A stretch of DNA of 64,000 nucleotides from Actinomycetota bacterium (GTDB lineage: Bacteria > Actinomycetota > Actinomycetes > S36-B12 > UBA5976). Position numbers and translations under genes: made by a program. Positions 26,820 to 64,000 of the stretch are shown in pieces. How positions within the stretch are numbered: position 1 is the stretch's first letter; every line of letters begins with the position of its first letter. Location of the stretch: contig JAPLBY010000030.1 in assembly GCA_026392515.1 (NCBI GenBank), forward strand, positions 2,902 to 66,901, read 5' to 3'. The notes beneath the pieces were generated by a model that was not told the origin of the DNA, made no database searches, and saw nothing but the letters and a program-made list of their open reading frames with translations.

Positions 26820-26845
26820 GGCGGGCGGCTTGCATGTTGCCCGCC
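26820..26845 (+). other. GC-rich hairpin between acpP and fabF (possible attenuator or processing element)
   Basis: Stem GGCGGGC / GCCCGCC with a 12-nt loop. There is no T-tract after it, so it is not a classical terminator. Confidence 0.3.
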
Positions 26846-26915
26846 ACATAAAAACTAGTTCTATCCGCAAGAGAAATATCCATAAATTCTAATTCAAATT
26901 GAAAGGTCGACAACA

Positions 26916-30060: not shown

Positions 30061-30066
30061 CTCTTG

Positions 30067-30122
30067 CCTCCTAGCCTTTCCTACAAATTGCCTTCCCCGA
30101 CATGTTGTAGGACTCCTAGGAG
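30067..30122 (-). promoter_or_regulatory. 5'-UTR hairpin / inverted repeat covering the DUF3145 Shine-Dalgarno sequence
   Basis: Nested inverted repeats: CTCCTAG (30068-30074) with CTAGGAG (30116-30122), and TCCTACAA (30079-30086) with TTGTAGGA (30105-30112). The SD AGGAGG (30067-30072) lies in the outer stem. Confidence 0.45.
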
Positions 30123-30206
30123 CACTTAGGAAGAGAATAACCCCACTGGTCACAGAATTACCACCAGAGCCAGTAAATTGACGCAAACTAGCGCAAATTG
30201 CCTTAA

Positions 30207-50851: not shown

Positions 50852-51073
50852 TCGAGCGCCTCCAGTTTGTGCTTGAAAAAGCACGAAAAACTATGCTGTC
50901 TAACCAAAATAGGGGCGTCGGCTTTGAAACCAATCATTCTTTTACCGTTGTTTAACTAAGTCTGGGGCTACCCCAACCGACCTACTAGGGCTATCCCTAG
51001 CGATGACCAAAGTGTCCGTTTTGATTCACAGAATCTGCAAAATAGACATTTGGAACGCGTCATACTTCTATAT

Positions 51074-51730
51074 ATGAACAGTCCGCGCTTACTCGTCATC
51101 GAAGATGATGCCTTTACGCGAACATCTATAGTCGGTGCTTTGATCGGTAACGGAATTGAAGTAATCGATTCAGTTGGAACCTCAGCTGAGGCCATAACCT
51201 CATTTGAAAAGCACTCCCCTAACGCAGTTCTACTTGATCTAGATCTTGGCTATGGTCCAACAGGTCTTGACCTAGCGCGCGCTTTTAGGTTGCGCAATCC
51301 AAACGTTGGCCTCGTGATGCTTACTTCATACACTGATCCCCGATTGTTGAGGTCTAAACTTCCAGACATTCCTGCCGGTACTGAATATTTAGTAAAAAGC
51401 AATGTCAATGAGATCAAAATTGTTAGCGAAGCGATAGCGCAAGCAATGGACAATGCATCAGGTGCTCGCTCAAAAAGCAGGCAACCACGTCATGACATCC
51501 CGAGAGATATTCAAGGCATGACTGACATCCAAATTGAAACGCTACGGATGGTCGCCCAAGGACATACCAACAGTGAGATTGCAAAGCAGCGATTTGTGAG
51601 CGAAAAGGCTGTTGAGCAAACTATTGCAAAGATTGCTAAAGCTCTCGACATACCTGCTGCCACGAACCAAAATCAACGAGTTCACATTGCGCGAGTTTTC
51701 TTTAGGCTAACTGGTCAAGGAAACATGTAA
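51074..51730 (+). CDS. Response regulator, NarL/LuxR family
   Basis: Receiver domain (LLVIEDD...AVLLDLDLG...MLTSY) plus a C-terminal GerE-type HTH (LRMVAQGHTNSEIAKQRFVSEKAVEQTIAKI). I chose the ATG at 51074 (MNSPRLLVIEDD). Confidence 0.88.
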   Translation: MNSPRLLVIEDDAFTRTSIVGALIGNGIEVIDSVGTSAEAITSFEKHSPNAVLLDLDLGYGPTGLDLARAFRLRNPNVGLVMLTSYTDPRLLRSKLPDIPAGTEYLVKSNVNEIKIVSEAIAQAMDNASGARSKSRQPRHDIPRDIQGMTDIQIETLRMVAQGHTNSEIAKQRFVSEKAVEQTIAKIAKALDIPAATNQNQRVHIARVFFRLTGQGNM

Positions 51731-53451
51731 TGTTTTCGGAAAGTGCGCGCACCGCACTCTCAGGACGTTGGGCAATTTCACGAGATCCCTACATATTCAT
51801 TGCACCAACAACCATCGCATCAGTGATTTTGCTCCAAGCGACAACTTTTGAAGCAGCAGAGATTTGGGGTTGGTTTCTGGCGTCAACCGGCGGCTACTTA
51901 GTTTTTTGTTTTTTGCTGTATTTGGCACACATAACCCTGTATCGAAACCGAGCAACCACACCTGTGCCCGTTGCCTGGATTTTTGCAGTCGGGTTTGTCT
52001 TTGGCGCCATAAAGGGTGCGTCAACTGCCGCTATCAGTGTTGGCTTGAATCTTGAATCTGATCTGAATGCAGAAATAGTCGGAAGAGCACTACCTGCCGG
52101 ATTACTTGGCTTAGCCGGCGTTCCATCTATGGCATTACTTATGCATGCGTTACATGAGTTTCGGCGAAAGCGAGCTGAGCTCATTGCTGAACAACTCTTT
52201 ATTGAATCTAAGGAAGTTCAAAGCCATGAACTAATCGCTACCATGAGCGCTCAATTGCGCGAAAAAGTGGAAGTTGACTTGGGGGTTCTCATGGAGGACC
52301 TAAAAAACAGCTTAGATTCTGATTCAGGTCAGACTGATTCGTGGCAATTGATAGCCGATGACTTGCGAACCACGGCGAATGAAACTGTGCGGGATGTGAG
52401 CCATGGATTGTGGGAGCGACCTGCAACCAAAGTAGAAGAAATTTCCTTCCTCGACCTTGCTCGAGCCATGATTACAACGAGTGCTTTCCCGCTTCGATAC
52501 ATTATTCCGATTTTGCTTGTCTCGGCAGCTCCAGTAAACATCAAGGATCACGGCACGGACGAACTTGTGGTTCGCCTTCTTTCACTTGCCCTTTGCACTT
52601 CCATTACATATCTGATTGCTTCCTGGGGAATCAAGAAATTTGTCGACTATAGATACCAGATCTATTTGTCAGCTCTTGTGTTAGCAGGATTGATTCCATC
52701 CGTTGGTGCAATCGTGATCTTTAATGATCCCGTGAATCAGCACTTTATTGGCGTCTCCATAACCATTGCTCTTTGGCTCCCAACCCTGACGATTACCTGC
52801 GGCCTAATCGATACAGCCTTGAAGCAACGGCAAGAGATTCTCGACGAACTACAATCCCGGATCGACAAGAGTCGCGTTAGAACTGTTTCCGAGAATAATG
52901 AAGCGATTCGCCTAAGTAACGACATGGCGAAGTATCTTCATGGCAACCTTCAGTCTCGGCTGATGGCGTCTGCTTTTGCAATTGAAGCAGCTGGTCGCGC
53001 GCAGGATGCTGGAGCGCTTGCGCAGGAGATTGAAAAGGCCCGCCAAAGTATCCAAACCCCGTTTGATCAATTCACTGGCATTGAACTGGAAGCCATATCA
53101 ATCGAATTGCCTAAATTGATGAAAATGTGGGACGGCGTGCTAACAACAGAAATCAACATTGCTGGGTCAGATGACTTTGTCTCAGTCACGGATACTCGAA
53201 ACATTATTCACATCATCGAAGAATGTTTCTCTAACTCACTTAGGCATGGCCTGGCCACAGAGGCCACAATCATCTTGATTGCAACTGGAACTGGAATCTC
53301 GCTTTCCGTAATTGATAACGGATTAGGTCCACGAGATGGGTTACCAGGTCTTGGGTCCTCACTATTCAATTCGATTGCCGGCAGCAACTGGTCATTGGTT
53401 CGAGGCCCAGACGGCATTGGTACGCAACTTAATTTGCAAATAACCAAGTAG
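51730..53451 (+). CDS. Membrane sensor histidine kinase (HisKA_3-type)
   Basis: 573-aa ORF. The N-terminal half has multiple TM helices. H-box YLHGNLQSRL, N-box ECFSNSLRHG and G-box DNGLGP. Start overlaps the regulator stop (ATGTAATG). Confidence 0.85.
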   Translation: MFSESARTALSGRWAISRDPYIFIAPTTIASVILLQATTFEAAEIWGWFLASTGGYLVFCFLLYLAHITLYRNRATTPVPVAWIFAVGFVFGAIKGASTAAISVGLNLESDLNAEIVGRALPAGLLGLAGVPSMALLMHALHEFRRKRAELIAEQLFIESKEVQSHELIATMSAQLREKVEVDLGVLMEDLKNSLDSDSGQTDSWQLIADDLRTTANETVRDVSHGLWERPATKVEEISFLDLARAMITTSAFPLRYIIPILLVSAAPVNIKDHGTDELVVRLLSLALCTSITYLIASWGIKKFVDYRYQIYLSALVLAGLIPSVGAIVIFNDPVNQHFIGVSITIALWLPTLTITCGLIDTALKQRQEILDELQSRIDKSRVRTVSENNEAIRLSNDMAKYLHGNLQSRLMASAFAIEAAGRAQDAGALAQEIEKARQSIQTPFDQFTGIELEAISIELPKLMKMWDGVLTTEINIAGSDDFVSVTDTRNIIHIIEECFSNSLRHGLATEATIILIATGTGISLSVIDNGLGPRDGLPGLGSSLFNSIAGSNWSLVRGPDGIGTQLNLQITK

Positions 53452-53481: not shown

Positions 53482-54618
53482 ATGAATGCACGCGAACAGT
53501 CGCAGTATGACCACATCGTCATCGGTGGTGGCGCAATGGGCTCGGCAACTGCTTGGCAGCTTGCGAAGCGTGGCCGCAGCGTTCTTTTGCTCGAACAGTT
53601 CACAAAAGATCATGTTTCGGGTAGTTCTCATGGCGGCACCAGAATCTTTCGTCTTGGGCATGAGCAAAAGACATACACAACCCTCGGCATTGCTGCCCTT
53701 GATCTTTGGCGCGAGCTCGAAGCCGAATCCAATGAAACATTAGTTGAGTTAATTGGGCACGTTGATCATGGACCCGCAGAAGTTGTCGCTGACATCGAAT
53801 CAAACCTGAAGGCCCAAGGACTTGCATGTGAGCGCATGTCTCCAGAGCAAGCAAATCAGCGTTGGCCCGGAATCACTTTCGATGCAAATGTGGTTTATAG
53901 CCCTGATGGCGGTCGAGCTCATGCGCAACGAACCGTTGACACTTTATGGCGACGGACTGTTGAACTAGGTGGCGAGATTTGGGATAACACCAAGGTTGAG
54001 TCCGTCGAAATTGATGGTGACTTCGCAATCATCGAAACCGCTGATCAAACTCTACAAACAAAGTCTGTAGTGGTTTCTGCTGGAGCCTGGCTCCCCCGAC
54101 TAATTGGTCATCATGTTTCACTTCGTGGTCATCATGTTTCACTTCGGCCTCTGCACGCAGTTCGCGCCCAGCCATCCCATTTCGCTCCCCGACCTGGCTT
54201 TGACGATATAGATATGTGGCCAACGTTTATCCATCGAGGTCTTAGTGCCCAGCCCGAAGTTGAGAACAGTTGGTATGGGCTCTGGACACCCGGCGAAGGC
54301 GTAAAAGTTGGCTCACATCTGGTGCACGATGAACTTGATTTGGACAACCGAAGTTTTGAAATAAATCGTAAGTTTGAGTCAGCGCTGCAAGAATATGTTG
54401 CCCAGTGGTATCCGGGATTAGATGCCGACAAAGTCACCTCAACAACCTGCATTTACACAAATGAGCCGAACGAGCACTTCATATTGGATCGCAAGGGGCC
54501 GCTTACTGTCTGCTCACCCTGTTCAGGCCATGGATTTAAGTACGTACCAGCAATTGGAAATATCACAGCAGATTTAGCGATGGGTGGCACTCAAAGCGTT
54601 AAAGAGTGGCAGTTCTAA
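53482..54618 (+). CDS. Monomeric sarcosine oxidase / N-methyltryptophan oxidase-like FAD enzyme
   Basis: YDHIVIGGGAMGSATAWQLAKRG dinucleotide fold and the C-terminal CSGHGFKY covalent-flavin Cys motif. 378 aa. Confidence 0.85.
   Translation: MNAREQSQYDHIVIGGGAMGSATAWQLAKRGRSVLLLEQFTKDHVSGSSHGGTRIFRLGHEQKTYTTLGIAALDLWRELEAESNETLVELIGHVDHGPAEVVADIESNLKAQGLACERMSPEQANQRWPGITFDANVVYSPDGGRAHAQRTVDTLWRRTVELGGEIWDNTKVESVEIDGDFAIIETADQTLQTKSVVVSAGAWLPRLIGHHVSLRGHHVSLRPLHAVRAQPSHFAPRPGFDDIDMWPTFIHRGLSAQPEVENSWYGLWTPGEGVKVGSHLVHDELDLDNRSFEINRKFESALQEYVAQWYPGLDADKVTSTTCIYTNEPNEHFILDRKGPLTVCSPCSGHGFKYVPAIGNITADLAMGGTQSVKEWQF
54106..54147 (+). repeat. 21-bp tandem duplication (20/21 identical) inside the sarcosine-oxidase-like gene
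   Basis: GGTCATCATGTTTCACTTCGT followed by GGTCATCATGTTTCACTTCGG. It encodes GHHVSLR-GHHVSLR. Confidence 0.95.
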
Positions 54619-55259: not shown

Positions 55260-55333
55260 GGGGCGGTAGCTCAGTTGGTCAGAGCATCGGACTCATAATC
55301 CGTGGGTCGTCGGTTCGAGCCCGACCCGCCCCA
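55260..55333 (+). tRNA. tRNA-Met (anticodon CAT; elongator-type, Ile2/lysidine type not excluded)
   Basis: GGGGCGGTAGCTCAGTTGGTCAGAGCATCGGACTCATAATCCGTGGGTCGTCGGTTCGAGCCCGACCCGCCCCA folds as a cloverleaf with a paired 1:72 and anticodon loop CTCATAA. Confidence 0.9.
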
Positions 55334-55378
55334 CCGTTAAGGACTTTTTAAGTCTTTTAGAGCCGTTTAAGGCACTTT

Positions 55379-55399
55379 GACAGCAACGTTGACAGCAAC
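55379..55399 (+). promoter_or_regulatory. GACAGCAAC-N3-GACAGCAAC direct-repeat motif, copy A
   Basis: GACAGCAACGTTGACAGCAAC lies 45 nt after the tRNA-Met 3' end. Related copies are at 57254 and 58013. Confidence 0.45.
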
Positions 55400-55439
55400 C
55401 ATCTCAAAGAGTCACACAAAAAAAATTTCTAGGCTTGAG

Positions 55440-56924
55440 TCATCTGACTTGAACGAGAACGAATTCGTTGCCTACGAAAACTTTGGCGCCTTCAGGCGGT
55501 ATTTGATTTTGGCAGACTGGCTTTTTATTTGAGTCAGCTGGTTTATTGCCCTTGGTATCAGATCCGCCTGGTGAAGCTGGCTTATCAGATCCGCCTGGTG
55601 AAGCTGGCTTATCAGAAGGTCCACCAACATTCTTGTCGATCAAGAGAAAGATAGCGGAGTACGAAGATAGGCATGAAGTTTCATAATATGCATCTGAAGC
55701 AACGTCTGTCGCAAGGAGCCAAGAACTCAGGAATTCCATTCCATGTCTTGCAACGACAATTGAATTTTCTGGTAGGTCAACAGTCTTAGCAAACTCTTTG
55801 AAATCTGAATATCGAGAATCACTTAGTACTGGAGGTGTTGGTCCACGCAAACTTAGGGTCGCACTCGCAAGCAAAGTGATTACAGCCAAAGCCCCGATCA
55901 GAGTTCTTTGCAGCACGGTCGAAGATTTAGCAAAAATGATAATTCCTGAAACAGCCAAGGGAACAAAAGCTAGCGCTGCCAATCGGTCGAACCAGGCAAT
56001 GCCAATTATCGGTGATGACAGAACAAAAGTCACAATTAGTGAAGACCAAACTACAGAAGTCTCACTGACGTTTAAGGTAGGCCGAAGTTTCCAAGCGATT
56101 ACACCGAGCAAAATAGCCCCAAGCTGGCAAAGGATTATGGTGGATGCAATAACTGGATTTGCATAACCATAAAGTATCGCTTTCCAAGCGGGTAGTTTAA
56201 ATATTTCTACTGGATTTAAAATAAATGTAGTCAATGTAGTGAAGCGACTAGGAACTACAAGTGCAAGCATTAGAGCAACCAGAAGGCCACTTAAGATCAC
56301 TAAGCCGATAGTCAACGGCCTGATCTTTACCTGCTGTTGGCGAATTCGCACTAGCAACCAAAAACTTAGAATCATTAATGCCAGCAATAAAGTGCCAAAG
56401 TGCGTAAACGAAATTGCCAAAATAGCGGTACCAGCCATTGCATAGCGCGATCGTGCGCCTCTTTCATCCCAAGAAAGCAAAATCCAGGAGAGAAGGAAAA
56501 CTGCAGGTATAGCTGCTTCATTTTTTATGAAATCGCCTGTGAAGAAGAACAGTTGCACTGGATTTAGCAAGACAAAAGCAATGCTTACTGCGGGAAGTAA
56601 TTGAATTGGGTACCTACGTGCGATTAAGTAAATAGGAACTGCTGAAAGGGCGGGCAGGATCGCATCAGAAATTCGGACAGCACTAGGTATGTCATTTAGT
56701 AGCCAGGCGATACCGGCTTGCACATAGATGACCAAGGGTAGATCAGAGAATGCAAGTGATGAATTTTCTAAAAGGGACCTCACTTGGACCCAGTAGTAAG
56801 CCCCATCAAGCCCGGGCAACAGTGAATTTGAAGTTAGTGAAAACTTATAGAAAACTGCGATTACAACAACAGCGGCAGACGCTGCGAAAGGTAGCGATCT
56901 TGTAGACAGATTTCGGCTTGGCAT
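55440..56924 (-). CDS. Polytopic membrane protein, possible GT-C-fold glycosyltransferase (PMT/ArnT/STT3-like)
   Basis: 494-aa ORF with at least 10 hydrophobic segments, an early loop LPGLDGAYYWVQVRSLL (Asp-containing first-loop motif as in GT-C enzymes) and a soluble C-terminal domain. RBS GGGAG is upstream. The family call is tentative. Confidence 0.4.
   Translation of the reverse strand: MPSRNLSTRSLPFAASAAVVVIAVFYKFSLTSNSLLPGLDGAYYWVQVRSLLENSSLAFSDLPLVIYVQAGIAWLLNDIPSAVRISDAILPALSAVPIYLIARRYPIQLLPAVSIAFVLLNPVQLFFFTGDFIKNEAAIPAVFLLSWILLSWDERGARSRYAMAGTAILAISFTHFGTLLLALMILSFWLLVRIRQQQVKIRPLTIGLVILSGLLVALMLALVVPSRFTTLTTFILNPVEIFKLPAWKAILYGYANPVIASTIILCQLGAILLGVIAWKLRPTLNVSETSVVWSSLIVTFVLSSPIIGIAWFDRLAALAFVPLAVSGIIIFAKSSTVLQRTLIGALAVITLLASATLSLRGPTPPVLSDSRYSDFKEFAKTVDLPENSIVVARHGMEFLSSWLLATDVASDAYYETSCLSSYSAIFLLIDKNVGGPSDKPASPGGSDKPASPGGSDTKGNKPADSNKKPVCQNQIPPEGAKVFVGNEFVLVQVR
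55557..55616 (-). repeat. Perfect 27-bp tandem duplication (2.2 units) in the GT-C-like gene
   Basis: ATCAGATCCGCCTGGTGAAGCTGGCTT occurs twice, then ATCAGA. It encodes SDKPASPGG-SDKPASPGG. Confidence 0.95.
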
Positions 56925-57176
56925 AAAACTCCCTAGTTATCAGTGCGCATTTTGACCATAGCAGTTTAGGTTCGAAGCTCTTGATAAACCGTACAGATAC
57001 CGCGTGGTGGTCTCGAAATAGAACTAAGTCAACATTTGGCGGGAGAAAACGCGTACAAAACACGTACAACATGCACAGATATCAAACGACACAAACCGAC
57101 ATGGAACTACATCAAAGCCTTGCTATAACTACATAAACCGACATCAAACGATATAGAACTACACGCTCAGGCCATC

Positions 57177-57219
57177 CTCATAATCCGTGGGTCGTCGGTT
57201 CGAGCCCGACCCGCCCCAC
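57177..57219 (+). repeat. Perfect 43-nt copy of tRNA-Met positions 55292-55334 (att-like site)
   Basis: CTCATAATCCGTGGGTCGTCGGTTCGAGCCCGACCCGCCCCAC is identical from the anticodon loop to one nt past the discriminator base. Confidence 0.9.
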
Positions 57220-57253
57220 TGCTAAAGGGTTTCTATGCTGAAAATTTCTGTTT

Positions 57254-57274
57254 GACAGCAACTCAGACAGCAAT
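57254..57274 (+). promoter_or_regulatory. GACAGCAAC-N3-GACAGCAAT motif, copy B
   Basis: GACAGCAACTCAGACAGCAAT lies 35 nt after the tRNA fragment at 57177-57219. Confidence 0.45.
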
Positions 57275-57365
57275 CAGCTTCTACGAAGCAATGAACAACA
57301 CCCAACAATCAACTCGACTTGTTTCCATTTAAATTTGAACGTGAGGACCTACCTCATTAAGTCTC

Positions 57366-57872
57366 TCACCTGGTCGTTAACGCAAGATTTTTTGAAACTG
57401 ATGAACTACCAACATCGTTTACGGCAATAACACGGAACAAATAAGCAGTTTTTGAGCGAAGGCCAGTAACTGTGAGCGTAAGGCTCGTTGACACTGGTTT
57501 TGTTACGGTCGTCCATGACGTTCCGCCATTTGTCGAGTACTCGACCAGATAGTTTCTCACTGCACTTCCGCCCGATACCGTTGCTGCGGCCCACGACAAC
57601 TTAACCGAAGTAGTTGATGGCGTTACTGCCAGCGATGTAGGAGCTTTAGGAACATTGCCGACAGTGACCGCATTCACAGCTGTCTATACCGAGCCTGTCC
57701 CTGTCGCGTTGATTGCGGCAACACGGAACCAATATTTCGTTCCCGCTGCCAGACCAGTTGTTACATCGAATTGGTGATGGTGATCGTACAGTTCGAAGCC
57801 TCGGCGTTTGCCGGTGCGGTTAGGCCTAGGCCACTGAGTACCAATACAACGCGTAAAAGAATGGCTCTGCAC
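57366..57872 (-). pseudogene. Remnant of an FN3-repeat surface protein gene (5'-truncated, internal in-frame TAG)
   Basis: Two tracked ORFs (57684-57872 and 57366-57677) are in the same frame, separated only by TAG at 57681-57683. Together they read ...TGLAAGTKYWFRVAAINATGTGSV*TAVNAVTVGNVPKAPTSLAVTPSTTSVKLSW...YLFRVIAVNDVGSS. There is no signal peptide or plausible N-terminus. Confidence 0.7.
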
Positions 57873-58012
57873 TTGTGGGTCAGTAGTATCACATTCACAA
57901 CATTACTGCAGGCTTCGGGACTGCTGAAGGTTTAGTTGACTAATTGACCTAACCCCCACTTTTCAGGCCTATGTTATTCAAGAGTGGGACAGCTCGCATC
58001 AGATCAAATTCG

Positions 58013-58033
58013 GACAGCAACGCTGACAGCAAC
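58013..58033 (+). promoter_or_regulatory. GACAGCAAC-N3-GACAGCAAC motif, copy C
   Basis: GACAGCAACGCTGACAGCAAC. A partial third unit GACAGCTCG lies at 57988-57996. Confidence 0.45.
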
Positions 58034-58147
58034 CGCCTTTGAAAAGACGCGCCACAGATAATTTGCTCCATGCGAAAAATCTAGGAAAAACCCTGCAAAT
58101 GTTGAATAATAGTTTGCACACTGCAAGCTAATAAGTGCCTAAAAACG

Positions 58148-58183
58148 AATCCGTGGGTCGTCGGTTCGAGCCCGACCCGCCCA
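58148..58183 (+). repeat. Copy of the tRNA-Met 3' part with one C deleted (att-like site)
   Basis: AATCCGTGGGTCGTCGGTTCGAGCCCGACCCGCCCA against tRNA ...AATCCGTGGGTCGTCGGTTCGAGCCCGACCCGCCCCA. Confidence 0.85.
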
Positions 58184-58207
58184 TCACTTACCTGGAGGTT
58201 ACTTGTC

Positions 58208-59791
58208 CTACTCGACATACCTCAATACAACGGTCGCCTTACGCGAAGTCTTTTTGGAATTAAGTGCACCCTTACCTGATGCCACCAGGCGCACTTTAAT
58301 TCCGTGATCAGCCAAGAAGCGAGCAACTACTTTTGCGCGAGCAGCCGACAACTTTTTGTCATTGGCGCTATTGCTACCTCGCTGCACGTATCCCACAACA
58401 GTTCCACTGGTAACTTTCTTGCCCACCTTTGCAATCGCACGTAGCAGCTTCTTCTTTTCCTTGGCAGTTAGTTTGGAAGATCCGGCGTCGAAAGCAACCG
58501 ATAACTTTAAGGACTTTTTAGGACAACCTTTGCCCAGTCCGTTGGAGATACTCAGACCGCCAGCCGTTGCGACATAGATAATTCCGCCACTGACGAAGGT
58601 ACCAGTGACGAAGTCGTCGCCCAAGCAGTTTTCGGTGGTGTCGTTAGTGAATGTTGCTCCACCGTCCGTTGAGATACCTAAACCTCCCCACGTAGAGGCA
58701 TAGAGTGTTCCACCGTTCACGTATACATCGGTCACATGCGCGTCTGCGAAGCCTGCACTTACGCCAGAGCCGGCGGGCTCAGTTGCGAAATAGTTGGTAG
58801 AGTACTGCAAGCCAAACCCGGTTGCGACAAAGACAGTGTTCCCATTGACGTAGACCCCATTCTGCAACTCCTCTCCAGTTGGAGAATTGATAAATGTCGT
58901 CCCGCCGTTTGTTGAGTAGGCCAAGTGGTTGTTCGTGGCCAGGTAGATATTGGAACCGCTTGCGTAGATTCCTCTCACGGAGTTGCATGTGACGGACCCG
59001 CACAGCACAGTGCTGTTTAGGTGAGTGAAACTGATGCCCCCATCTGTGGAAATACTCAAGCCGCCAGGAGCTTTAAGTGTGGCTGTGCCATAAGCAGGAT
59101 CCACAGAAGTAGACCCAAGGTCCGGGGTGTTCTTTGCATAAGAGAACTGCGTAGTCGAAGCAGCAGTAACGGAGTAAATGCCATCCAATGTGGTATCGAC
59201 ACCACTTACATAAACGATTGACCCAACAGCAAGTCCGTTATCGGCTGACGTGGTCAAGGTCACGATACCCGAGTTGACCTCCATGTTAGTGACGGGAGAT
59301 GTGGCTATGACTTTTGCGGAGATGGAGGTACCGGCATAGATGGTGTTACCGTCGACGAATACTGCCTTCACATCTGAGCTGCCCAATCCATTGGCCATAT
59401 TCTTGTTAGTGAACGTAGTGCCTCCGTTTGTGGAGATGCTCAAGCCACCCACAGTCGGGTTTCCATAGCCGTATGTGGTGTCCGTGGTCGATGCGTAGAT
59501 TGTGTTCCCCACGACAAACACCCCGCTGACGTTATTACTGCCAAGGCCGTTAGCGGTGGTGTAGTTGGTGAAGGAAGCTCCACCGTTGGTGGAGATGCTC
59601 AACCCTGCGTCGGTTGCGGCGTAGACGTTTGCACCGACTACATACACAGCATTCACCGTGTCGCTACCCAAGCCGTTGGCAGTGGTTCGATTTACATACT
59701 GCAATCCGCTGTCGTCCGCTTTCGCAGGGCTAATTGCAAGTCCAGAGAGCAATAGCACTAGACATGTGATGGCAGTTGTAATTCGGCGCAT
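58208..59791 (-). CDS. Secreted repeat (beta-propeller-like) protein with C-terminal OmpA-like peptidoglycan-binding domain
   Basis: Signal peptide MRRITTAITCLVLLLSGLAISPAKA. About 8 repeats of ~50 aa (ANGLGS..V..V.V.GN.IYA.T..GLSISTNGG..FTN). The C-terminus FDAGSSKLTAKEKKKLL...NDKKLSAARAKVVARFLADHGI fits the OmpA_C pattern. Confidence 0.75.
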   Translation of the reverse strand: MRRITTAITCLVLLLSGLAISPAKADDSGLQYVNRTTANGLGSDTVNAVYVVGANVYAATDAGLSISTNGGASFTNYTTANGLGSNNVSGVFVVGNTIYASTTDTTYGYGNPTVGGLSISTNGGTTFTNKNMANGLGSSDVKAVFVDGNTIYAGTSISAKVIATSPVTNMEVNSGIVTLTTSADNGLAVGSIVYVSGVDTTLDGIYSVTAASTTQFSYAKNTPDLGSTSVDPAYGTATLKAPGGLSISTDGGISFTHLNSTVLCGSVTCNSVRGIYASGSNIYLATNNHLAYSTNGGTTFINSPTGEELQNGVYVNGNTVFVATGFGLQYSTNYFATEPAGSGVSAGFADAHVTDVYVNGGTLYASTWGGLGISTDGGATFTNDTTENCLGDDFVTGTFVSGGIIYVATAGGLSISNGLGKGCPKKSLKLSVAFDAGSSKLTAKEKKKLLRAIAKVGKKVTSGTVVGYVQRGSNSANDKKLSAARAKVVARFLADHGIKVRLVASGKGALNSKKTSRKATVVLRYVE

Positions 59792-59862
59792 TGTTGGATT
59801 CCTTCATTAAGTAGCTCGGACTCAAGCATCATTTCAGAATTTAAGCGACGATTTGAATTTCG

Positions 59863-59874
59863 TCACACGTGTGA
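59863..59874. promoter_or_regulatory. Perfect 12-bp palindrome TCACA-CG-TGTGA upstream of the 527-aa surface protein gene
   Basis: TCACACGTGTGA lies 72 nt upstream of the start at 59791. The flanking TGTGAAATTTAGTTTCGCC is homologous to the sequence at 62724-62741. Confidence 0.5.
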
Positions 59875-59952
59875 AATTTAGTTTCGCCAAGTGGTTGCGA
59901 TTACAACTCTGGGTATGCTGGCGTCTTCAGCGGAAGAAAAACTCTTCAGACA

Positions 59953-59990
59953 AATCCTTGCGTTGTCAGTTCGAGCCCTACCTATCCCTT
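59953..59990 (+). repeat. Decayed copy of the tRNA-Met 3' part
   Basis: AATCCTTGCGTTGTCAGTTCGAGCCCTACCTATCCCTTA aligns without gaps to AATCCGTGGGTCGTCGGTTCGAGCCCGACCCGCCCCA, with roughly three quarters of positions identical by eye. Confidence 0.5.
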
Positions 59991-60008
59991 ACTTAACGCA
60001 ACCGCACA

Positions 60009-62645
60009 CTACATAGTTAAGTACTTGGCCAAAATCTTGGTTTTTGGCCTAATACCCTGCCTGACAGTCTTGATCTTTATCGAAATGTTGGACTTCTTGA
60101 CGCCGAGCTTGATTAGGTAGGCCTTAACTTTTTCGGCTCGAGCCTTGGCAAGTGCTTTGACAAATGAATTAGGCACACCAATTGACTTACCAGCAACTCC
60201 AGTAACTGTGTACTTTGCTTTCTTGCCAGCCTTTTTCACAATCTTTTTGATCACTTTTTTATCAGCTTTTGAAAGTGCCGCTGACCCTGCCGTGAAATCA
60301 CCCACGTAGCTTGTGATTGAAGTTGACTTTGAGTTTGTCGCAGAATTATCTGTCGTCGGTTCTGGTTCTGGGGTTTCGCCAACAATCGTCGGTTCTGGTT
60401 CTGGGGTTTCGCCAACAACAGGGAATCCGCCACCATAAAACTTATACAAGTTTCTCGTAGTCGGCGTGTTGCATGAGCACCCAACGATAACTCCTCCATC
60501 GCTGGTGAGGACAGTCGCGACAGCTTCGTAGTCCAAAATATTTGAAGCATTCGTGTTGAAGGTAGCCGAATCTCCCGTAACGGTGCCGTCGGCGTTCACC
60601 CGCTTCACATAATGGTCGAAGTCTCCGGCTGCAACTATGGAGCCATCGCGTGCGACGGACAAGTTGTATATAGAACCCTTGAAAGTTGTTGAGACATTGT
60701 TGTTGAAGACTGCAGCCGCACCGGTAGTCGTGCCATCTGAATTTAATATTCTCAACTTGCCAGTGAAACGTCCTCCAGCAACCAAAGAGCCGCCGCTGGT
60801 TAGTCCTAGAGTGCTAACGTCATTATCGACACTGCGACCCACATTCGTATTGAAAGTGGCTGCGACTCCGGTTGTCGTTCCATCAGCATTGAACATCTTC
60901 AGACCTTCGGCGAAGCCGCCTCCCACCACCACCGAGCCGTTGGCCAGTTGAATGATATCTTCAACAGGGTCACCCAGAACGCTCACCACGTTGGCATTGA
61001 ACGAGGCTGCAGATCCTGTGGTTGTGCCATCAGCATTAAACATCTTTAGGGCGATGTATTCGGCACCTAGAACTTCGAAATTACTACCACCAACCACCAC
61101 CGAGCCGTCGGTCAGCTGCACGATCGCATTGACGTCCCCCCCGTTCAAAACGTCCTGCACATTGGCATTGAACGTGGCGGCAGATCCTGTGGTCGTACCG
61201 TCTGCATTAAACATCTTGATTCTGTTGGTGAAGTTGCCTCCCACCAGGACTTTCCCATTTGCTAATACCTTGATCGCCTTAACTTGGCCGCCCACAGCAC
61301 TGCCAACATTGGTGTTGAAGCTGGCGGCGGTGCCGGTGTAGCTACCATCTGCATTTATCATGCGCAGGTTCCCCGAGAAATACCCGCCCAGCAGGAATCC
61401 ATCTTGGAATGAAACCGCAGCGTCAACTTCACTAGCGATGAGCCCATCAGTATTCAGATTGAACGTTCCGGCGGCCCCCGTTGATGATCCGTCGGCGTTG
61501 AGGCGACCGATACCAGAGTTGATTCCACCGCCAAACAGATATCCACCGCCAGGAATGTTCACAATGGAATAGACGCGGCCTGTGGGAGGACGATTCGTGT
61601 TAAACGTGGCAGCATCGCCAGTCAAGGAGCCATCGAGATTGAACTTCTGCACGTCGCCACCGTCACCGGCGATGAGAACGGATCCATCAGTGTTTGCAAA
61701 TAGGGAAAATGGAGTCGAATCCCAGTCACGCGTGCTCATTGCCGCATTGAACGAAGTGGTCTCGGTTCCCGTACTCGTGCCATCTAAGTTCTTTCGCATG
61801 ACGTATCCCGGCACGCCATAACCACCTAGAGTGATGGCGCTGTTGGCTTCATCCAAAGCGATGGCCATGACTCTATCGCCAACACTGGACCCGATGGAGG
61901 TATTGAAGTTGCCTGCGGAACCAGTGGTCGTTCCATTCGAGTTGAACATCTTAAGGCCGTTTGTGAAACTGCCACCCACGATTATCTGTTCGTCGGATGT
62001 GTGAAAAGCGATCGCGTCGACCGTCCCATTCAAGGCGTTGTCCACGTTTTCATTGAAGGTGGCCGCATCGCCGGTGGTTGTTCCGTTGGCCTTTACCATC
62101 TTCAGCTTGCCATCGAAGTCACCGCCCACCAAGAAGGAGCCATCAAACAAACTTTTATTCAGAACCTTTACCCCTTCATTTCCACCGTTGAAGAGTCCGA
62201 CTACGTTCGCATTAAACGTGGCCGCGAGTCCAGTAGTCGTTCCATCTGCGTTGAACATCTTCAATCGGTTGGTGAAGGCGCCGCCCACCACAATCTGTCC
62301 GTTGCTTCGGACAGCTATAGCGTTGACTGGCCCATCCAAAGCGCTGCCGATATTCGTGTTGAACGTTGCGGCCGATCCCGTAGTGGTTCCATTACTGTTG
62401 ACCTTCACGAGTTTGCCAGTTAGTCCCCCGCCGACAAGGAAACTCCCATCACGTGCGACGGCCACAGCTTGCACATCCCCGCCGACGACGGGGAAACCGA
62501 AATGTGAATTGAAAGAGGTGTCGCCCAGTCCAGGGGTACTGACTATTCCAGCTTGAGCAGGTTTGGAGACCAATCCGCAGATCAATCCGAGCGTAAGTAA
62601 TGCAGACAAGGCGCGCTTTAACAAGATGAGACTCCGAAAAATCAA
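60009..62645 (-). CDS. Secreted delta-60-type repeat protein with C-terminal OmpA-like domain
   Basis: Signal peptide, then at least 12 repeats of ~55-60 aa (FN.NV...V.AI....DGS.VVGG.FT..LKMFNADGTTTG.AATFN). A GETPEPEPT x2 linker follows. The C-terminus FTAGSAALSKADKKVIKKI...ALAKARAEKVKAYLIKLGV is OmpA-like. The tracked start is TTG at 62645. TTG at 62624 has GGAG 7 nt upstream. Confidence 0.75.
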   Translation of the reverse strand: MIFRSLILLKRALSALLTLGLICGLVSKPAQAGIVSTPGLGDTSFNSHFGFPVVGGDVQAVAVARDGSFLVGGGLTGKLVKVNSNGTTTGSAATFNTNIGSALDGPVNAIAVRSNGQIVVGGAFTNRLKMFNADGTTTGLAATFNANVVGLFNGGNEGVKVLNKSLFDGSFLVGGDFDGKLKMVKANGTTTGDAATFNENVDNALNGTVDAIAFHTSDEQIIVGGSFTNGLKMFNSNGTTTGSAGNFNTSIGSSVGDRVMAIALDEANSAITLGGYGVPGYVMRKNLDGTSTGTETTSFNAAMSTRDWDSTPFSLFANTDGSVLIAGDGGDVQKFNLDGSLTGDAATFNTNRPPTGRVYSIVNIPGGGYLFGGGINSGIGRLNADGSSTGAAGTFNLNTDGLIASEVDAAVSFQDGFLLGGYFSGNLRMINADGSYTGTAASFNTNVGSAVGGQVKAIKVLANGKVLVGGNFTNRIKMFNADGTTTGSAATFNANVQDVLNGGDVNAIVQLTDGSVVVGGSNFEVLGAEYIALKMFNADGTTTGSAASFNANVVSVLGDPVEDIIQLANGSVVVGGGFAEGLKMFNADGTTTGVAATFNTNVGRSVDNDVSTLGLTSGGSLVAGGRFTGKLRILNSDGTTTGAAAVFNNNVSTTFKGSIYNLSVARDGSIVAAGDFDHYVKRVNADGTVTGDSATFNTNASNILDYEAVATVLTSDGGVIVGCSCNTPTTRNLYKFYGGGFPVVGETPEPEPTIVGETPEPEPTTDNSATNSKSTSITSYVGDFTAGSAALSKADKKVIKKIVKKAGKKAKYTVTGVAGKSIGVPNSFVKALAKARAEKVKAYLIKLGVKKSNISIKIKTVRQGIRPKTKILAKYLTM
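60354..60419 (-). repeat. 33-bp tandem duplication (32/33 identical) in the delta-60 repeat gene
   Basis: CGTCGGTTCTGGTTCTGGGGTTTCGCCAACAAT followed by ...AAC. It encodes the duplicated VGETPEPEPT. Confidence 0.95.
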
Positions 62646-62701
62646 GGTAGATTAATTAATTCCTTGACTTTACAAAAGATGTGCAATGCGTGCTGAAAAC
62701 A

Positions 62702-62728
62702 TCACATGTGTGATATTCACATATGTGA
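62702..62728. promoter_or_regulatory. Two adjacent TCACA-N2-TGTGA palindromes upstream of the 878-aa surface protein gene
   Basis: TCACATGTGTGA (62702-62713) and TCACATATGTGA (62717-62728, inside the perfect 14-bp palindrome TTCACATATGTGAA). They lie between the kinase stop (62731) and the surface-gene start. Confidence 0.5.
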
Positions 62729-62730
62729 AA

Positions 62731-63804
62731 TTAGAGTTTCCAGCGTAATTCGATTACAACTTGTTCATCTTGATTAGAGATACTCCATGCGCCGTCAAAC
62801 TTTGTTACCCAAGCATCAATCACCGCGAAGCCATGTCCCTGCATCGAGGTGTGCGGTTCATACAAAATTCCATTATTCGAAATTTTCAGAAATAACTCAA
62901 TACTTGAAATTTGAGCCTGCACTTCAAGGTGGTTAGCCGTTCCATGAGCCAAGCTATTCAATAGTGCTTGCTCAATGATCCGATAAATGCCTAGGAAATA
63001 GGTCTGGCTAGCTTGACCATTGGTTTCGAAAACCTCCATGTTGTGAAGCCGGCAGTCAATCACATCTTTGTATCTTGAAAACAAGCGCTGCAGGCTTGTC
63101 TCAAGGTTGTCTACCTGAAAATTTGGGGTGATCCCCTTCCCAAAGTCTCGAACTTCTTGGGCGCGTATGTCCTCAATGTCCTCAATAACATTCATGATCT
63201 TTGCAGAGTCATTTTCGTTTAACGAGTCTCTGATTTGATTTAGTTGAATGCCAATGGCCACTAGGCGCGTTTGTAAGTTGTCGTGGAGATGACTGGAAAT
63301 CAGCGATCGGAATTCTTCTTCGGCTGAGATTAGGGATTTTTGGTGCGATTCTAATTCTTTGGTTCGCTTTTGAACTTGTGCGATCAAGTAACCCGCTATT
63401 GATTCAGTCACACTGACCAGCAAAACTAATCTAAAGAATGCCACGGCCGATTCGAGATTCGATCGATCAAGTGCTACCAGTAAGAAAATTTCCATCGGAC
63501 TGACCGACAATCCAATAACTGCTAAGTACTTTGCTATCCAGAATTTAGGTTGTGACTTTTTTATTAGAGCAGAACCTAAGTAACAGATAACAAAGGCAAA
63601 AACTATCGTGAATAGCGAAAACAATACGAGTGGCAGTAAGTTGGACTCCGGCGCATAGTTCAATACCCTTCGATATTCAAAAATGATTCGCCAGAATGCA
63701 AAAATTGTTATTGCCGGAAAAGTTGCATAAATCTTTCTAGGAGTCCTGAAAAACTCTCGAATACTCCAAATTGATTCAGAAAAAAAATACTTGAAGCTAG
63801 GCAT
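62731..63804 (-). CDS. Membrane sensor histidine kinase (HisKA_3-type)
   Basis: 357-aa ORF with N-terminal TM helices, H-box HLHDNLQTRL, N-box EQALLNSLAHG and a G-box-like GHGFAVIDAW. Confidence 0.8.
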   Translation of the reverse strand: MPSFKYFFSESIWSIREFFRTPRKIYATFPAITIFAFWRIIFEYRRVLNYAPESNLLPLVLFSLFTIVFAFVICYLGSALIKKSQPKFWIAKYLAVIGLSVSPMEIFLLVALDRSNLESAVAFFRLVLLVSVTESIAGYLIAQVQKRTKELESHQKSLISAEEEFRSLISSHLHDNLQTRLVAIGIQLNQIRDSLNENDSAKIMNVIEDIEDIRAQEVRDFGKGITPNFQVDNLETSLQRLFSRYKDVIDCRLHNMEVFETNGQASQTYFLGIYRIIEQALLNSLAHGTANHLEVQAQISSIELFLKISNNGILYEPHTSMQGHGFAVIDAWVTKFDGAWSISNQDEQVVIELRWKL

Positions 63805-63805
63805 G

Positions 63806-64000
63806 CTATATTGATGAAGTAGTAAGTTGCTGATAGCGCAAAATTGATGTTACGCGAAGGTCAACTCCGGGCTCTGGATTTGGAACGAGTATCGAGTAGG
63901 CGTTTGATAAATCTTTTCGCACGCTATCAAAAGAAATGCTGAGTTTCTCAGCAATTGCCCTTGGTTCGATACCAGTTGCCAGCATCGACAAAACTAAATG
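63806..64000 (-). CDS. LuxR/GerE-family regulator, C-terminal HTH part (5' end outside window; probably the cognate response regulator)
   Basis: The frame stays open to the window edge (…HLVLSMLATGIEPRAIAEKLSISFDSVRKDLSNAYSIL), a GerE-type HTH. The stop lies 1 nt before the kinase start. Confidence 0.7.
   Translation of the reverse strand, partial: HLVLSMLATGIEPRAIAEKLSISFDSVRKDLSNAYSILVPNPEPGVDLRVTSILRYQQLTTSSI

What the first reader, a model, noticed from the sequence alone, without database searches (positions are those of the whole stretch)
55260..59990. Stacked cassettes bounded by serial copies of the tRNA-Met 3' end, with no integrase in sight
**Seen in the sequence.**
- The 43 nt from the anticodon loop to one base past the discriminator of tRNA-Met (55292-55334) recur perfectly at 57177-57219.
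- They recur again at 58148-58183 with a single C deleted.
- A decayed form (about three quarters identical by eye) lies at 59953-59990.
- All copies are in the same orientation.
- Sequence just past the first two copies is also related (CGTTAAGGAC vs TGCTAAAGGG).

**What each interval holds.**
- A GT-C-like membrane protein.
- A dead FN3 gene.
- An OmpA-anchored propeller protein.
- Beyond the last copy, a delta-60/OmpA protein followed by a two-component system.

**Established knowledge.** Tyrosine-integrase islands duplicate the tRNA 3' part at each insertion. Serial insertions therefore leave ladders of progressively older att copies.

**Inference.** This looks like an additive, tRNA-anchored, cell-surface-variation locus that grew by repeated integration. 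The recombinase is either lost or encoded elsewhere. I see no integrase, excisionase or transposase ORF in the window, which is the unusual part.
Basis: partly seen in the sequence, partly recalled or inferred. Interest (0 to 1): 0.75.

Follow-up and report, generated by a model that had tools for sequence, protein, structure and literature searches.

The report
tRNA-Met island built from integrase-less cassettes
Downstream of a tRNA-Met gene in a freshwater actinobacterium (Nanopelagicales relative) lies a real stack of small gene cassettes separated by copies of the tRNA's 3' end; this is the footprint of repeated integrase-mediated insertion, a known kind of "additive" genomic island, whose recombination-site anatomy can be read unusually clearly here.

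Summary
The tRNA-Met 3' part (55292-55334) recurs perfectly at 57177-57219, as 35/35 nt plus a C deletion at 58148-58183, and decayed at 59953-59990. A fifth, near-perfect copy lies about 1.45 kb past the window end.

No integrase or transposase is encoded in the window.

Related metagenome contigs show the same architecture and move the breakpoints onto the repeats:
- The GT-C cassette occurs in three different contexts. It is 92% identical between genomes whose core flanks are only about 75% identical.
- A near-identical strain (99.9%) diverges inside the third copy.
- Contigs of five related genomes (MAGs) break at this tRNA.

A new feature is a tandem 9-mer pair, GACAGCAAC-N3-GACAGCAA. It sits 35 or 45 nt after the copies. 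It also sits exactly 137/125 nt before the third copy, inside a conserved ~135-nt arm. This is the geometry of arm-type sites in actinophage attP.

One related contig carries a tyrosine integrase beside an identical tRNA-Met, followed by the same arm.

Verdict: a tRNA-anchored additive island made of att-flanked, integrase-less cassettes, with the recombinase supplied by transient elements. This is a known kind of island (Planktophila, Methylopumilus and Prochlorococcus islands; CIMEs). Interest is moderate.

The parts
55260..55335 (+). tRNA-Met(CAT). This is the intact gene and the attL of the array. Its 3' trailer reads CCG, not CCA.
   Evidence: ARAGORN. Rfam tRNA at 71.5 bits. Relatives encode CCA at this position.
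55292..55334 (+). att copy 1: the anticodon loop to one base past the discriminator, inside the tRNA.
55335..55399 (+). P'-type arm 1. The tandem pair GACAGCAAC-GTT-GACAGCAAC lies at 55379-55399, 45 nt after the discriminator.
   Evidence: It is 96% identical to the arm in L134, which has different cargo.
55440..56924 (-). Cassette A cargo: a 494-aa GT-C-like (PMT_2 family) membrane glycosyltransferase.
   Evidence: 91.8% nt identity to L136 and 91% to L184, in different neighbourhoods.
57039..57176 (+). Alternative P-type arm of cassette A. It contains weaker tandem repeats (CGTACAA x2, AAACCGACAT x2). In L136 it is replaced by the conserved P-module at exactly this boundary.
   Evidence: (D8, D9).
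57177..57219 (+). att copy 2, 43/43 identical to copy 1.
57220..57274 (+). P'-type arm 2. The pair GACAGCAAC-TCA-GACAGCAAT lies at 57254-57274, 35 nt after the discriminator.
57366..57872 (-). Cassette B cargo: a dead gene with two FN3 domains, an in-frame stop and no N-terminus.
58013..58147 (+). Conserved P-type arm ('P-module'). It opens with the pair GACAGCAAC-GCT-GACAGCAAC (58013-58033), 137/125 nt before TCCG of the core.
   Evidence: In alignment A2 with L135 and L136, conservation starts at the first repeat and ends with the att copy. The spacing is identical in all 3 copies.
58148..58183 (+). att copy 3, an attR-type copy (P-module on the left, no P' pair on the right). It is 35/35 identical, then one C is missing.
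   Evidence: A 99.87%-identical strain (L190) diverges to the left from 58158, inside this copy.
58208..59791 (-). Cassette C cargo: a 527-aa secreted repeat/propeller-like protein with an OmpA C-terminal domain.
   Evidence: It is 100% identical to the NCBI MAG protein MCX6417477.1.
59953..59990 (+). att copy 4, decayed.
   Evidence: 25/30 matches, score 20 against at most 17 in shuffles. 76% identical to copy 3 over 46 nt.
60009..62645 (-). 878-aa delta-60/DUF5122 propeller-repeat protein with an OmpA C-terminus.
62731..64000 (-). HisKA_3 histidine kinase (62731-63804) and the start of a LuxR-type response regulator (63806 onward, running out of the window). They lie inside the interval that ends at the fifth att copy, about 65452-65486 in window-equivalent coordinates.

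Best explanation
This is a tRNA-Met-anchored additive genomic island, built by tandem accretion of small integrative elements.

Proposed mechanism:
- Each element entered by tyrosine-integrase recombination between its own attP and the tRNA's 3' part.
- The attP consists of a core identical to the tRNA's 3' part, flanked by arms.
- Each entry rebuilt the tRNA and left a partial tRNA copy at the element's far end.

State of the elements in the window:
- They are reduced to one gene each (0.97-1.9 kb) and encode no recombinase.
- The first two still carry recognisable arms. One arm is a tandem 9-mer pair, GACAGCAAC-N3-GACAGCAA, 35 or 45 nt downstream of the core. The other is a conserved ~135-nt arm that opens with the same pair 137 nt upstream of the core.
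- They are therefore att-flanked, non-autonomous cassettes.
- They can be gained, lost or reshuffled only when a cognate integrase is supplied. That could happen in trans, or in cis by an integrase-bearing element landing in the same array. Such elements exist in the population.

Shown directly:
- the repeats and the arms;
- cassette modularity, with breakpoints at the repeats;
- the horizontal-transfer signature;
- the absence of a recombinase in the window;
- an integrase at the same site in a relative.

Inferred, not shown:
- that the 9-mer pairs are arm-type integrase binding sites;
- that strand exchange for these cassettes lies in the T-arm/acceptor part of the core;
- that the cassettes are still mobilisable.
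For: 1. Repeats. There are four copies in one orientation, with identity to the tRNA starting in or just after the anticodon loop, plus a fifth copy past the window.

2. The site is hypervariable.
- All five related MAG contigs that hold this tRNA end 0-440 nt after it.
- In the three whose 3' flank was read, each has a different sequence directly after ...CCCCACC.

3. Breakpoints fall at the repeats.
- Cassette A follows the tRNA in the window but follows a DUF1330/epimerase/HxlR cassette in L136 and L184. It has three different right-hand neighbours.
- The DUF1330 cassette follows the tRNA (L136), a GNAT cassette (L133), or an integrase plus tRNA (L137).
- L190 is 99.87% identical to 58158-60382 and unrelated to the left of that point, which lies inside copy 3.

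4. Horizontal transfer. Cassette A is 91.8% identical to L136, while the adjacent DAO-SOUL-tRNA flank is 75.5% and the RR/HK genes are 68%.

5. Two att fragments, L133_a and L136_c, carry compensatory T-stem changes. They therefore derive from functional tRNA-Met alleles of other lineages.

6. Arms.
- The exact motif occurs 3 times in the window, only in the array and all on the + strand (0.35 expected).
- Thirteen pairs were found across the contigs.
- Downstream offsets are 34-35 nt (7 copies) or 45-46 nt (4 copies), one helical turn apart. The upstream offset is always 137/125 nt.
- Conservation of the P-module starts exactly at the first repeat.
- L135 shows P-module, core and P' pair contiguous. 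This attP-like junction is what is expected between tandem elements.
- The same arms are joined to at least 6 different cargos.

7. Integrase.
- L137 has a 388-aa tyrosine integrase (Phage_integrase, E = 4.7e-24) 184 nt from a tRNA-Met identical to the window's. That tRNA is followed by a P' pair and the DUF1330 cassette.
- In its relatives (L139, L186-L189) a different tandem pair, ATGCATACAC, travels with the integrase. In L189 it flanks the core on both sides.

8. Literature.
- Mycobacteriophage attPs have pairs of 11-bp arm-type repeats flanking the core. Related integrases that share a core can have different arm sequences (PMC3203893).
- Additive, tRNA-flanked islands are reported in Planktophila (PMC12817590).

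9. Homologues of cassette A sit almost always on 1.5-2.3 kb contigs. Assemblies break at both ends of the cassette.
Against: - No integrase that travels with the GACAGCAAC arms was found. The only integrase seen at this tRNA has a different arm motif next to it.
- Cassette A in the window and in L184 combines a GACAGCAAC P' arm with an unrelated P arm. The DUF1330 and GNAT cassettes have no non-coding P arm at all. At least some cassettes are therefore hybrids or cripples.
- Nothing after copy 3 or copy 4 looks like a P' arm.
- A 70% homologue of cassette C's protein sits at a non-tRNA locus in another genome.
- No excised circle and no binding data exist.
- The metagenome contigs were retrieved with a pattern that required core plus pair. 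The universality of the pair downstream of the copies is therefore partly by construction.
Confidence: 0.75

Rival explanations
1. Static graveyard. Every interval is the stump of a once complete integrase-bearing element that lost its integrase by deletion. Nothing here moves by site-specific recombination any more. Present-day variation arises only through homologous recombination of incoming DNA, using the att copies, the arms and the flanking core genes as homology.
For: - The FN3 gene is dead and copy 4 is decayed.
- Some cassettes lack a P arm, and cassette A carries mismatched arms.
- The P_alt arm and the P-module are swapped at one precise boundary. L184's cassette body is closer to L136 (95%) while its arm matches the window, a mosaic that suggests homologous exchange.
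- No cognate integrase was found.
Against: - The arms are conserved in sequence and in exact spacing across different cargos and genomes, including helical phasing of the P' pair. This is hard to explain without selection for a protein-DNA architecture.
- Cassettes of 0.8-2 kb share the same arms on at least 6 cargos.
- A live-looking integrase occupies the same array in L137.
- The strain-level breakpoint lies inside the 35-nt core rather than in the flanking homology.
Confidence: 0.2
2. Dedicated cassette system, analogous to an integron. A single integrase encoded elsewhere on the chromosome recognises the GACAGCAAC arms. It captures and shuffles promoter-carrying single-gene cassettes at tRNA-Met as a standing adaptive mechanism.
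For: - The units are single genes with uniform arms and many different cargos.
- Cassette-sized contigs are seen across many metagenomes.
- No integrase was ever seen inside a GACAGCAAC-armed unit.
Against: - No such integrase was identified.
- Several arm types share the same core. This fits many independent elements better than one dedicated system.
- Integrase-bearing elements do enter the array.
Confidence: 0.15
3. Assembly chimera. The order of cassettes in the window was created by a metagenome assembler walking through 35-43-nt repeats in a mixed population, so the ladder as drawn does not exist in one cell.
For: - The window comes from a MAG: its 527-aa protein equals MCX6417477.1, found on a 74-kb MAG contig.
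- A near-identical strain has a different left neighbour at copy 3.
- No independent contig spans copies 1 to 3 of this strain.
Against: - Independent assemblies from other projects contain 2-3 att copies with cassettes in a single contig (L133, L136, L184).
- L190 spans copy 4, and L001 spans the last interval up to copy 5, at 99.9-100% identity.
- The repeats are shorter than the usual maximum k-mer.
Confidence: 0.07
4. Decayed tandem duplicates of the tRNA-Met gene, unrelated to mobile DNA.
For: The copies are in the same orientation and are similar to the tRNA.
Against: - Every copy lacks the 5' half and starts in or after the anticodon loop.
- Each is flanked by conserved arms.
- The intervening genes are horizontally exchanged.
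Confidence: 0.02

Closest known systems
Additive, tRNA-flanked flexible genomic islands of streamlined plankton: Planktophila GI2-GI4, 'Ca. Methylopumilus' fGI-2, and Prochlorococcus islands/tycheposons
   Same: - An island starts at a tRNA gene and carries recurring copies of the tRNA 3' end.
- Content is strain-specific.
- Tandem elements are separated by partial tRNAs, and most islands hold no integrase (PMC12817590; PMC10872708; 10.1101/2020.12.28.424599).
- The host belongs to the same ecological guild, and probably to the order Nanopelagicales.
   Different: - Those descriptions are at the level of gene content. The Planktophila paper does not mention integrases at all.
- Here the units are single genes, and the recombination site (core plus paired arm repeats) is resolved.
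- Tycheposons are defined by their own integrase and replication module. That module is absent here and was not compared.
CIMEs (cis-mobilizable elements) and tandem accretion in Streptococcus ICESt1-type islands
   Same: Elements that keep attL and attR but have no integration or transfer genes, stacked with others at the 3' end of one target gene by site-specific recombination (PMC5704250).
   Different: - CIMEs are decayed ICEs or IMEs of several kb, moved by conjugation.
- No conjugation or mobilisation remnants are seen here.
- Units here are 0.8-2 kb, and the same arms serve many cargos.
attP of actinobacteriophage tyrosine integrases (mycobacteriophage L5, Giles, Cluster K)
   Same: - The common core overlaps the 3' part of a tRNA or tmRNA.
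- Pairs of ~11-bp repeats, predicted arm-type sites, flank the core. They are direct repeats in L5 and Giles.
- Related integrases that share a core can have different arm motifs (PMC3203893).
   Different: - There the integrase gene lies next to attP in a phage genome.
- Here the GACAGCAAC-armed sites are attached to cargo genes only.
- No phage genes are present, and there are no IMG/VR matches.
Integron cassette arrays
   Same: Arrays of mostly single-gene, recombinase-less cassettes separated by recombination sites and serviced by a recombinase encoded outside the cassettes.
   Different: - There is no IntI, attI, or folded single-stranded attC site.
- The sites are tRNA fragments with lambda-type arms, and several arm types coexist.

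Membership tests
[quoted passage not shown] | An intact tRNA gene at one end, with same-orientation direct repeats of its 3' part further in. | tested here: met
   A fifth copy is seen.
[quoted passage not shown] | Gene content differs among relatives, with breakpoints at the repeats. | tested here: met
   Seen in L136, L184, L133 and L190. MAG contigs break at the tRNA.
[quoted passage not shown] | A site-specific integrase is associated with the site in at least some genomes. | tested here: met
   Not in the window. L137 has a tyrosine integrase beside an identical tRNA-Met followed by the same P' arm.
CIME (cis-mobilizable element) | Flanked by attL and attR, with no integrase, excisionase or transfer genes. 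| tested here: met
   Cassettes A and B have att copies on both sides and a single cargo gene.
CIME (cis-mobilizable element) | Derived by decay of an ICE or IME, and moved in cis after accretion with a functional element. | not testable with these tools
   No conjugation remnants were seen. Excision and transfer cannot be tested in silico.
Heterobivalent tyrosine-integrase attP (lambda/L5 type) | A core identical to the target, flanked on both sides by repeated arm-type sites at fixed distances. | tested here: met
   The P-module pair lies at -137/-125 and the P' pair at +35 or +45. They are contiguous in L135.
Heterobivalent tyrosine-integrase attP (lambda/L5 type) | The arm sites are bound by the N-terminal domain of a cognate integrase encoded by the element. 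| tested here: inconclusive
   No integrase was found with GACAGCAAC arms. The related integrase family travels with a different pair, ATGCATACAC. Binding cannot be tested.
Tycheposon | A cargo element with its own tycheposon-clade tyrosine recombinase plus a replication or PICI-like module, sited at an island tRNA. | tested here: not met
   No recombinase, helicase or primase is present in the window. The L137 integrase was not compared with tycheposon integrases.
Integron | An IntI integrase next to attI, with cassettes ending in attC sites. | tested here: not met
   There is no integrase in the window, and the repeats are tRNA 3' fragments.
Prophage or phage satellite | Viral structural, replication or packaging genes, or similarity to viral contigs. 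| tested here: not met
   Pfam finds only cargo-type genes. The att core and the P-module are absent from IMG/VR. The integrase has no close viral relative: at most 35% identity in IMG/VR and at most 32% in GenBank phages.

The most novel reading that the evidence does not exclude
The GACAGCAAC-armed units could be a distinct class of miniature, integrase-less gene cassettes. Each would have a complete ~250-bp attP (P-module, tRNA-Met core, P' pair) attached to a single cargo gene. They would be captured, excised and reshuffled at tRNA-Met by an integrase acting in trans. That would be an integron-like cassette economy, built on a heterobivalent tyrosine integrase, in the most abundant freshwater bacteria. 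It would also supply the missing mechanism for their additive tRNA-flanked islands.
Probability: 0.3. Interest if true: 0.7.

Novelty: new member of a known kind. Interest (0 to 1): 0.45.

Why it matters
Nanopelagicales dominate freshwater bacterioplankton. Their strain-level diversity sits largely in tRNA-flanked additive islands, which have been described by gene content but not by mechanism. In the papers I could read, integrases are not mentioned, or the integration mechanism is said to be still unidentified.

This locus and its metagenomic relatives resolve several parts of that mechanism:
- the core within tRNA-Met;
- the paired arm repeats, with their fixed spacing;
- single-gene units that recur in different orders and cross lineage boundaries;
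- a candidate integrase family that visits the site.

This gives concrete handles for counting cassette turnover in long-read data and for reconstituting the recombination reaction: the core plus arm sequences, and the integrase family. If the cassettes prove mobilisable in trans, this would be a compact gene-capture system in genome-streamlined bacteria, which otherwise look almost free of mobile elements.

Tried and rejected
- IMG/VR scans for the 35-nt core and for the P-module/core junction found nothing.
- A scan for the bare GACAGCAAC-N3-GACAGCAA motif returned more than 120 unrelated, mostly coding hits. None had the tRNA core nearby.
- A profile search for the integrase in IMG/VR gave only relatives at 35% identity or less. 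GenBank phages gave at most 32%. A phage or satellite origin is therefore not supported.
- Exact-protein look-ups were of limited use. The SOUL flank gave only a 1.3-kb contig. Cassette A's exact protein is not on record. DNA for homologue P0123 is not held.
- The likely source contig (74,272 nt, NCBI MAG, protein MCX6417477.1) could not be fetched. The ~10 kb outside the window, including what follows copy 5, remain unseen.
- L009 has the DAO gene but no tRNA-Met and was uninformative.
- The layout in L138/L139 (integrase between a full tRNA-Met and a different, partial tRNA-Met-like sequence) could not be reduced to a simple attL/attR pair. I use it only to show that the ATGCATACAC pair travels with that integrase family.
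- Other candidate tandem pairs (CGTACAA x2 before copy 2, CTGCGAACA x2 before copy 5, ACTGCACTAA x2 in L184) sit at the expected distances. They are short, and only the GACAGCAAC pair passes an exact-repeat screen in the window. I treat them as suggestive only.
- The promoter/terminator scan found nothing above background in the array.
- Rfam found only the tRNA itself, plus one weak sub-threshold antisense match over the same bases.
- The cassette A family has no solved-structure relative by sequence.
- A 70% homologue of cassette C's protein lies at a non-tRNA locus. The C-type gene is therefore not always cassette-borne.

Full report
**1. What is in the sequence**

The window holds one tRNA-Met(CAT) at 55260-55335 on the + strand. 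The 43 nt from its anticodon loop to one base past the discriminator (55292-55334) recur without mismatch at 57177-57219. No match with up to 3 mismatches is expected by chance.

A third copy at 58148-58183 is identical over 35 nt, starting at AATCC, and then lacks one C. A fourth at 59953-59990 is decayed. It matches 25/30 in its core, with local score 20 against 12-17 for the best hit in shuffled 55-kb sequences, and is 76% identical to copy 3 over 46 nt. All copies point the same way.

- a 494-aa membrane protein whose family hits the GT-C family PMT_2 in 17 of 20 members;
- a dead two-domain FN3 gene with an in-frame stop;
- a 527-aa secreted protein with an OmpA C-terminus;
- an 878-aa delta-60/DUF5122 + OmpA protein, followed by a histidine kinase and a LuxR-type regulator.

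Pfam over every ORF of at least 150 aa finds only housekeeping and cargo functions. A six-frame search with a profile of 121 actinobacterial tyrosine integrases finds nothing (best E = 1.2).

**2. The ladder goes on past the window**

Two short contigs, L001 and L002, are 100% identical to 60389-64000. They continue for about 1.5 kb and end in a fifth copy, CTCAcAATCCGTGGGTCGTCGGTTCGAGCCCGACC, at window-equivalent ~65452-65486.

This copy is nearly perfect although it lies beyond the decayed fourth one. The copies are therefore not a simple chronological series. What follows copy 5 is unknown. The probable source contig (74,272 nt, an NCBI MAG) could not be retrieved.

**3. Organism and population context**

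The flanking FAD oxidoreductase finds 86-93% identical proteins only in freshwater Actinomycetota / 'Candidatus Nanopelagicales' MAGs.

In all five relatives that have this tRNA-Met, the contig ends 0-440 nt after it. In the three whose 3' flank was read, the sequence right after ...CCCCACC is different in each. This is the expected behaviour of a site that is hypervariable within populations.

**4. A second repeat: paired 9-mers that mark attP-like arms**

The motif GACAGCAAC-N3-GACAGCAA occurs exactly three times in the window, all on the + strand and all inside the array (0.35 expected at up to 3 mismatches). Two pairs lie 45 and 35 nt after copies 1 and 2. The third lies 137/125 nt before copy 3.

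One metagenome scan for core plus pair returned five JGI contigs, L133-L137, with the same design. Across these contigs, L184 and the window there are 13 pairs.
- The downstream pair starts 34-35 nt (seven cases) or 45-46 nt (four cases) after the discriminator. The two classes are one helical turn apart.
- The upstream pair is at exactly 137/125 nt in all three cases.

The upstream pair opens a ~135-nt module that is conserved (80-86%) in three unrelated neighbourhoods. Its conservation begins at the first repeat and ends with the att copy. In L135 the module, the core and the downstream pair are contiguous. This attP-like junction is expected where two elements of one type sit in tandem.

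The geometry matches published actinophage attP sites. Those have pairs of ~11-bp predicted arm-type sites on both sides of a tRNA- or tmRNA-derived core. The pairs are direct repeats in L5 and Giles, and related integrases that share a core can differ in arm motif (PMC3203893).

That the pairs bind an integrase is my inference. It was not tested.

**5. Cassettes are modules with breakpoints at the repeats**

Cassette A (P' arm + GT-C gene) has been found in three settings.
- In the window it is first after the tRNA and is followed by the FN3 unit.
- In L136 it follows a DUF1330 + epimerase + HxlR cassette and ends directly in the conserved module.
- In L184 it follows that same cassette, ends in the window's alternative arm, and is followed by yet another arm type.

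The DUF1330 cassette follows the tRNA in L136, a 0.79-kb GNAT cassette in L133, and an integrase plus tRNA in L137.

Cassette A is 91.8% identical between the window and L136. The adjacent core genes are only 75.5% (DAO-SOUL-tRNA) and 68% (RR/HK) identical. The cassette has therefore crossed lineages.

Two att fragments, L133_a and L136_c, carry compensatory T-stem substitutions, as if copied from functional tRNA-Met alleles of other hosts.

The most direct evidence comes from L190, a contig from a sample series that also yielded window-identical contigs. It is 99.87% identical to 58158-60382 and unrelated to the left of that point. The switch lies inside copy 3.

Homologues of cassette A in public assemblies sit almost always on 1.5-2.3-kb contigs. 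Assemblies break at both ends of the cassette.

**6. Where the recombinase is**

It is not in the window. In L137, a 388-aa tyrosine integrase (Phage_integrase, E = 4.7e-24, with a SAM-like N-terminal domain) lies 184 nt from a tRNA-Met that is 75/75 identical to the window's. On the 3' side of that tRNA come a GACAGCAAC pair and the DUF1330 cassette. An Abi_2 gene lies on the other side of the integrase.

I read this as the right end of an integrase-bearing element that has entered the same array. Its attP would include the whole tRNA sequence.

The integrase belongs to a large actinobacterial family: 3277 proteins at E < 1e-20, one of them annotated as a phiRv2-type prophage integrase. Its relatives at 68-75% identity (L139, L186-L189) share one layout. 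In tRNA orientation this runs: tRNA-Met, terminator hairpin, integrase (on the opposite strand, so that its 3' end faces the tRNA), a tandem ATGCATACAC pair, then a partial tRNA-Met-like core. L189 has a second ATGCATACAC pair beyond the core.

A tandem pair that travels with an integrase strengthens the arm-site reading. It also means the GACAGCAAC arms probably belong to a different integrase, which has not been seen.

The family has no close relative in IMG/VR or GenBank phages.

**7. Mechanism, with its weak points**

My preferred account is serial integration of small elements at tRNA-Met by heterobivalent tyrosine integrases. Each event rebuilds the tRNA from the element's copy and pushes older units outward. 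The window's tRNA now ends ...CCACCG instead of the CCACCA encoded in relatives.

The left boundary of identity to the tRNA varies among junctions:
- CTCATAA in copy 2, copy 5 and L133_a;
- AATCC before the conserved module;
- TCCG in L133_b, L134 and L136_b;
- TCGTCGG in L190.

For the GACAGCAAC-type units, strand exchange probably lies to the right of all of these, in the T-arm/acceptor segment. This is inference. For the ATGCATACAC-type integrases, identity stops at the anticodon loop.

The units in the window are att-flanked and integrase-less. They can move only with help, either in trans or in cis through accretion with an integrase-bearing neighbour, as defined for CIMEs (PMC5704250).

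Weak points:
- the cognate integrase is missing;
- cassette A in the window has mismatched arms;
- the DUF1330 and GNAT cassettes have no non-coding P arm;
- nothing resembling an arm follows copies 3 and 4;
- part of the shuffling looks like homologous exchange (L184's body is closer to L136, while its arm matches the window).

A static-relic reading therefore keeps about 0.2. An assembly chimera keeps about 0.07, because three independent assemblies contain multi-copy arrays in single contigs.

**8. Comparison with what is known, and novelty**

Ladders of partial tRNAs in additive islands are established.
- Prochlorococcus has tandem elements separated by partial tRNAs and scattered fragments, and most islands hold no integrase-bearing element (10.1101/2020.12.28.424599).
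- 'Ca. Methylopumilus' fGI-2 is marked by recurring copies of the last 20 bp of tRNA-Lys (PMC10872708).
- Planktophila GI2-GI4 are described as additive and flanked by tRNAs (PMC12817590).

I file the locus as a new member of this known kind.

What this locus adds is the resolved site anatomy and the single-gene, uniformly armed cassettes. The most novel reading not excluded is a trans-serviced, integron-like cassette system at tRNA-Met. I give it 0.3.

The "cell-surface variation" label fits the window's cargo (glycosyltransferase, FN3, two OmpA-anchored propeller proteins) and the LRR protein in L135. It does not fit the GNAT, DUF1330/epimerase/HxlR or Abi_2 genes found at the same site elsewhere.

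Noticed in passing
beyond the window end, window-equivalent ~65452-65486 (L001:1-40, minus strand): A fifth tRNA-Met 3' copy, with one mismatch in the anticodon (CAT to CAC). It is preceded about 110-130 nt upstream by a tandem CTGCGAACA x2. The ~1 kb between the response regulator and this copy holds only small ORFs, including a Cys-rich 60-aa one.
   Followed up: partly
window 59863-59874, 62702-62713, 62717-62728: The palindrome TCACAYRTGTGA occurs three times in the window (0.04 expected). All three lie 57-83 nt upstream of the start codons of the two OmpA-anchored propeller genes, just downstream of the LuxR-type two-component system. It may be an operator that ties both surface-protein genes, across decayed att copy 4, to that regulator.
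   Followed up: partly
window 54105-54146, 55556-55609, 60353-60418: Three perfect in-frame tandem duplications of 21, 27 and 33 nt inside coding genes. They give GHHVSLR x2 in the DAO oxidoreductase, DKPASPGGS x2 in the GT-C protein, and TIVGETPEPEP x2 in the delta-60 protein. L136's DAO has a single GHHVSLR.
   Followed up: no
window 55333-55337 vs L006, L007, L010: The window's tRNA-Met is followed by CCG. Relatives without this insertion encode CCA. The element-supplied 3' end removes the encoded CCA, so maturation must rely on CCA addition.
   Followed up: no
L185:11480-12600: In another actinobacterial contig, a 45% homologue of the GT-C cassette protein lies behind tRNA-Ser(GGA). Two short repeats of that tRNA's 3' end (CAyCCTCCGCCAG..TTGCTTC) lie between them. 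This looks like the same kind of ladder at a different tRNA.
   Followed up: partly
L139:9400-11100; L186-L189: Integrase-only mini-units: a full tRNA-Met, a terminator, an integrase, a tandem ATGCATACAC pair, and a partial tRNA-Met-like sequence whose 3' half does not match the neighbouring full tRNA. The origin of the mismatched partial copy is unexplained.
   Followed up: partly
window 41435-50884 (-) and 51050-53451 (+): A 3149-aa secreted giant protein (FN3, He_PIG and NIDO domains, with PS-rich linkers) sits about 4.4 kb upstream of the tRNA-Met, next to a second LuxR/histidine-kinase pair. That pair is only 68% identical to L136's. The variable surface region may extend to the 5' side of the tRNA as well.
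   Followed up: no
window 18245-30186 vs L138/L139: The AhpC, PDH-E1, PucR, fab genes and DUF3145 block is syntenic with contigs in which the ATGCATACAC-type integrase follows UbiA. The window has no such insertion in that block.
   Followed up: no
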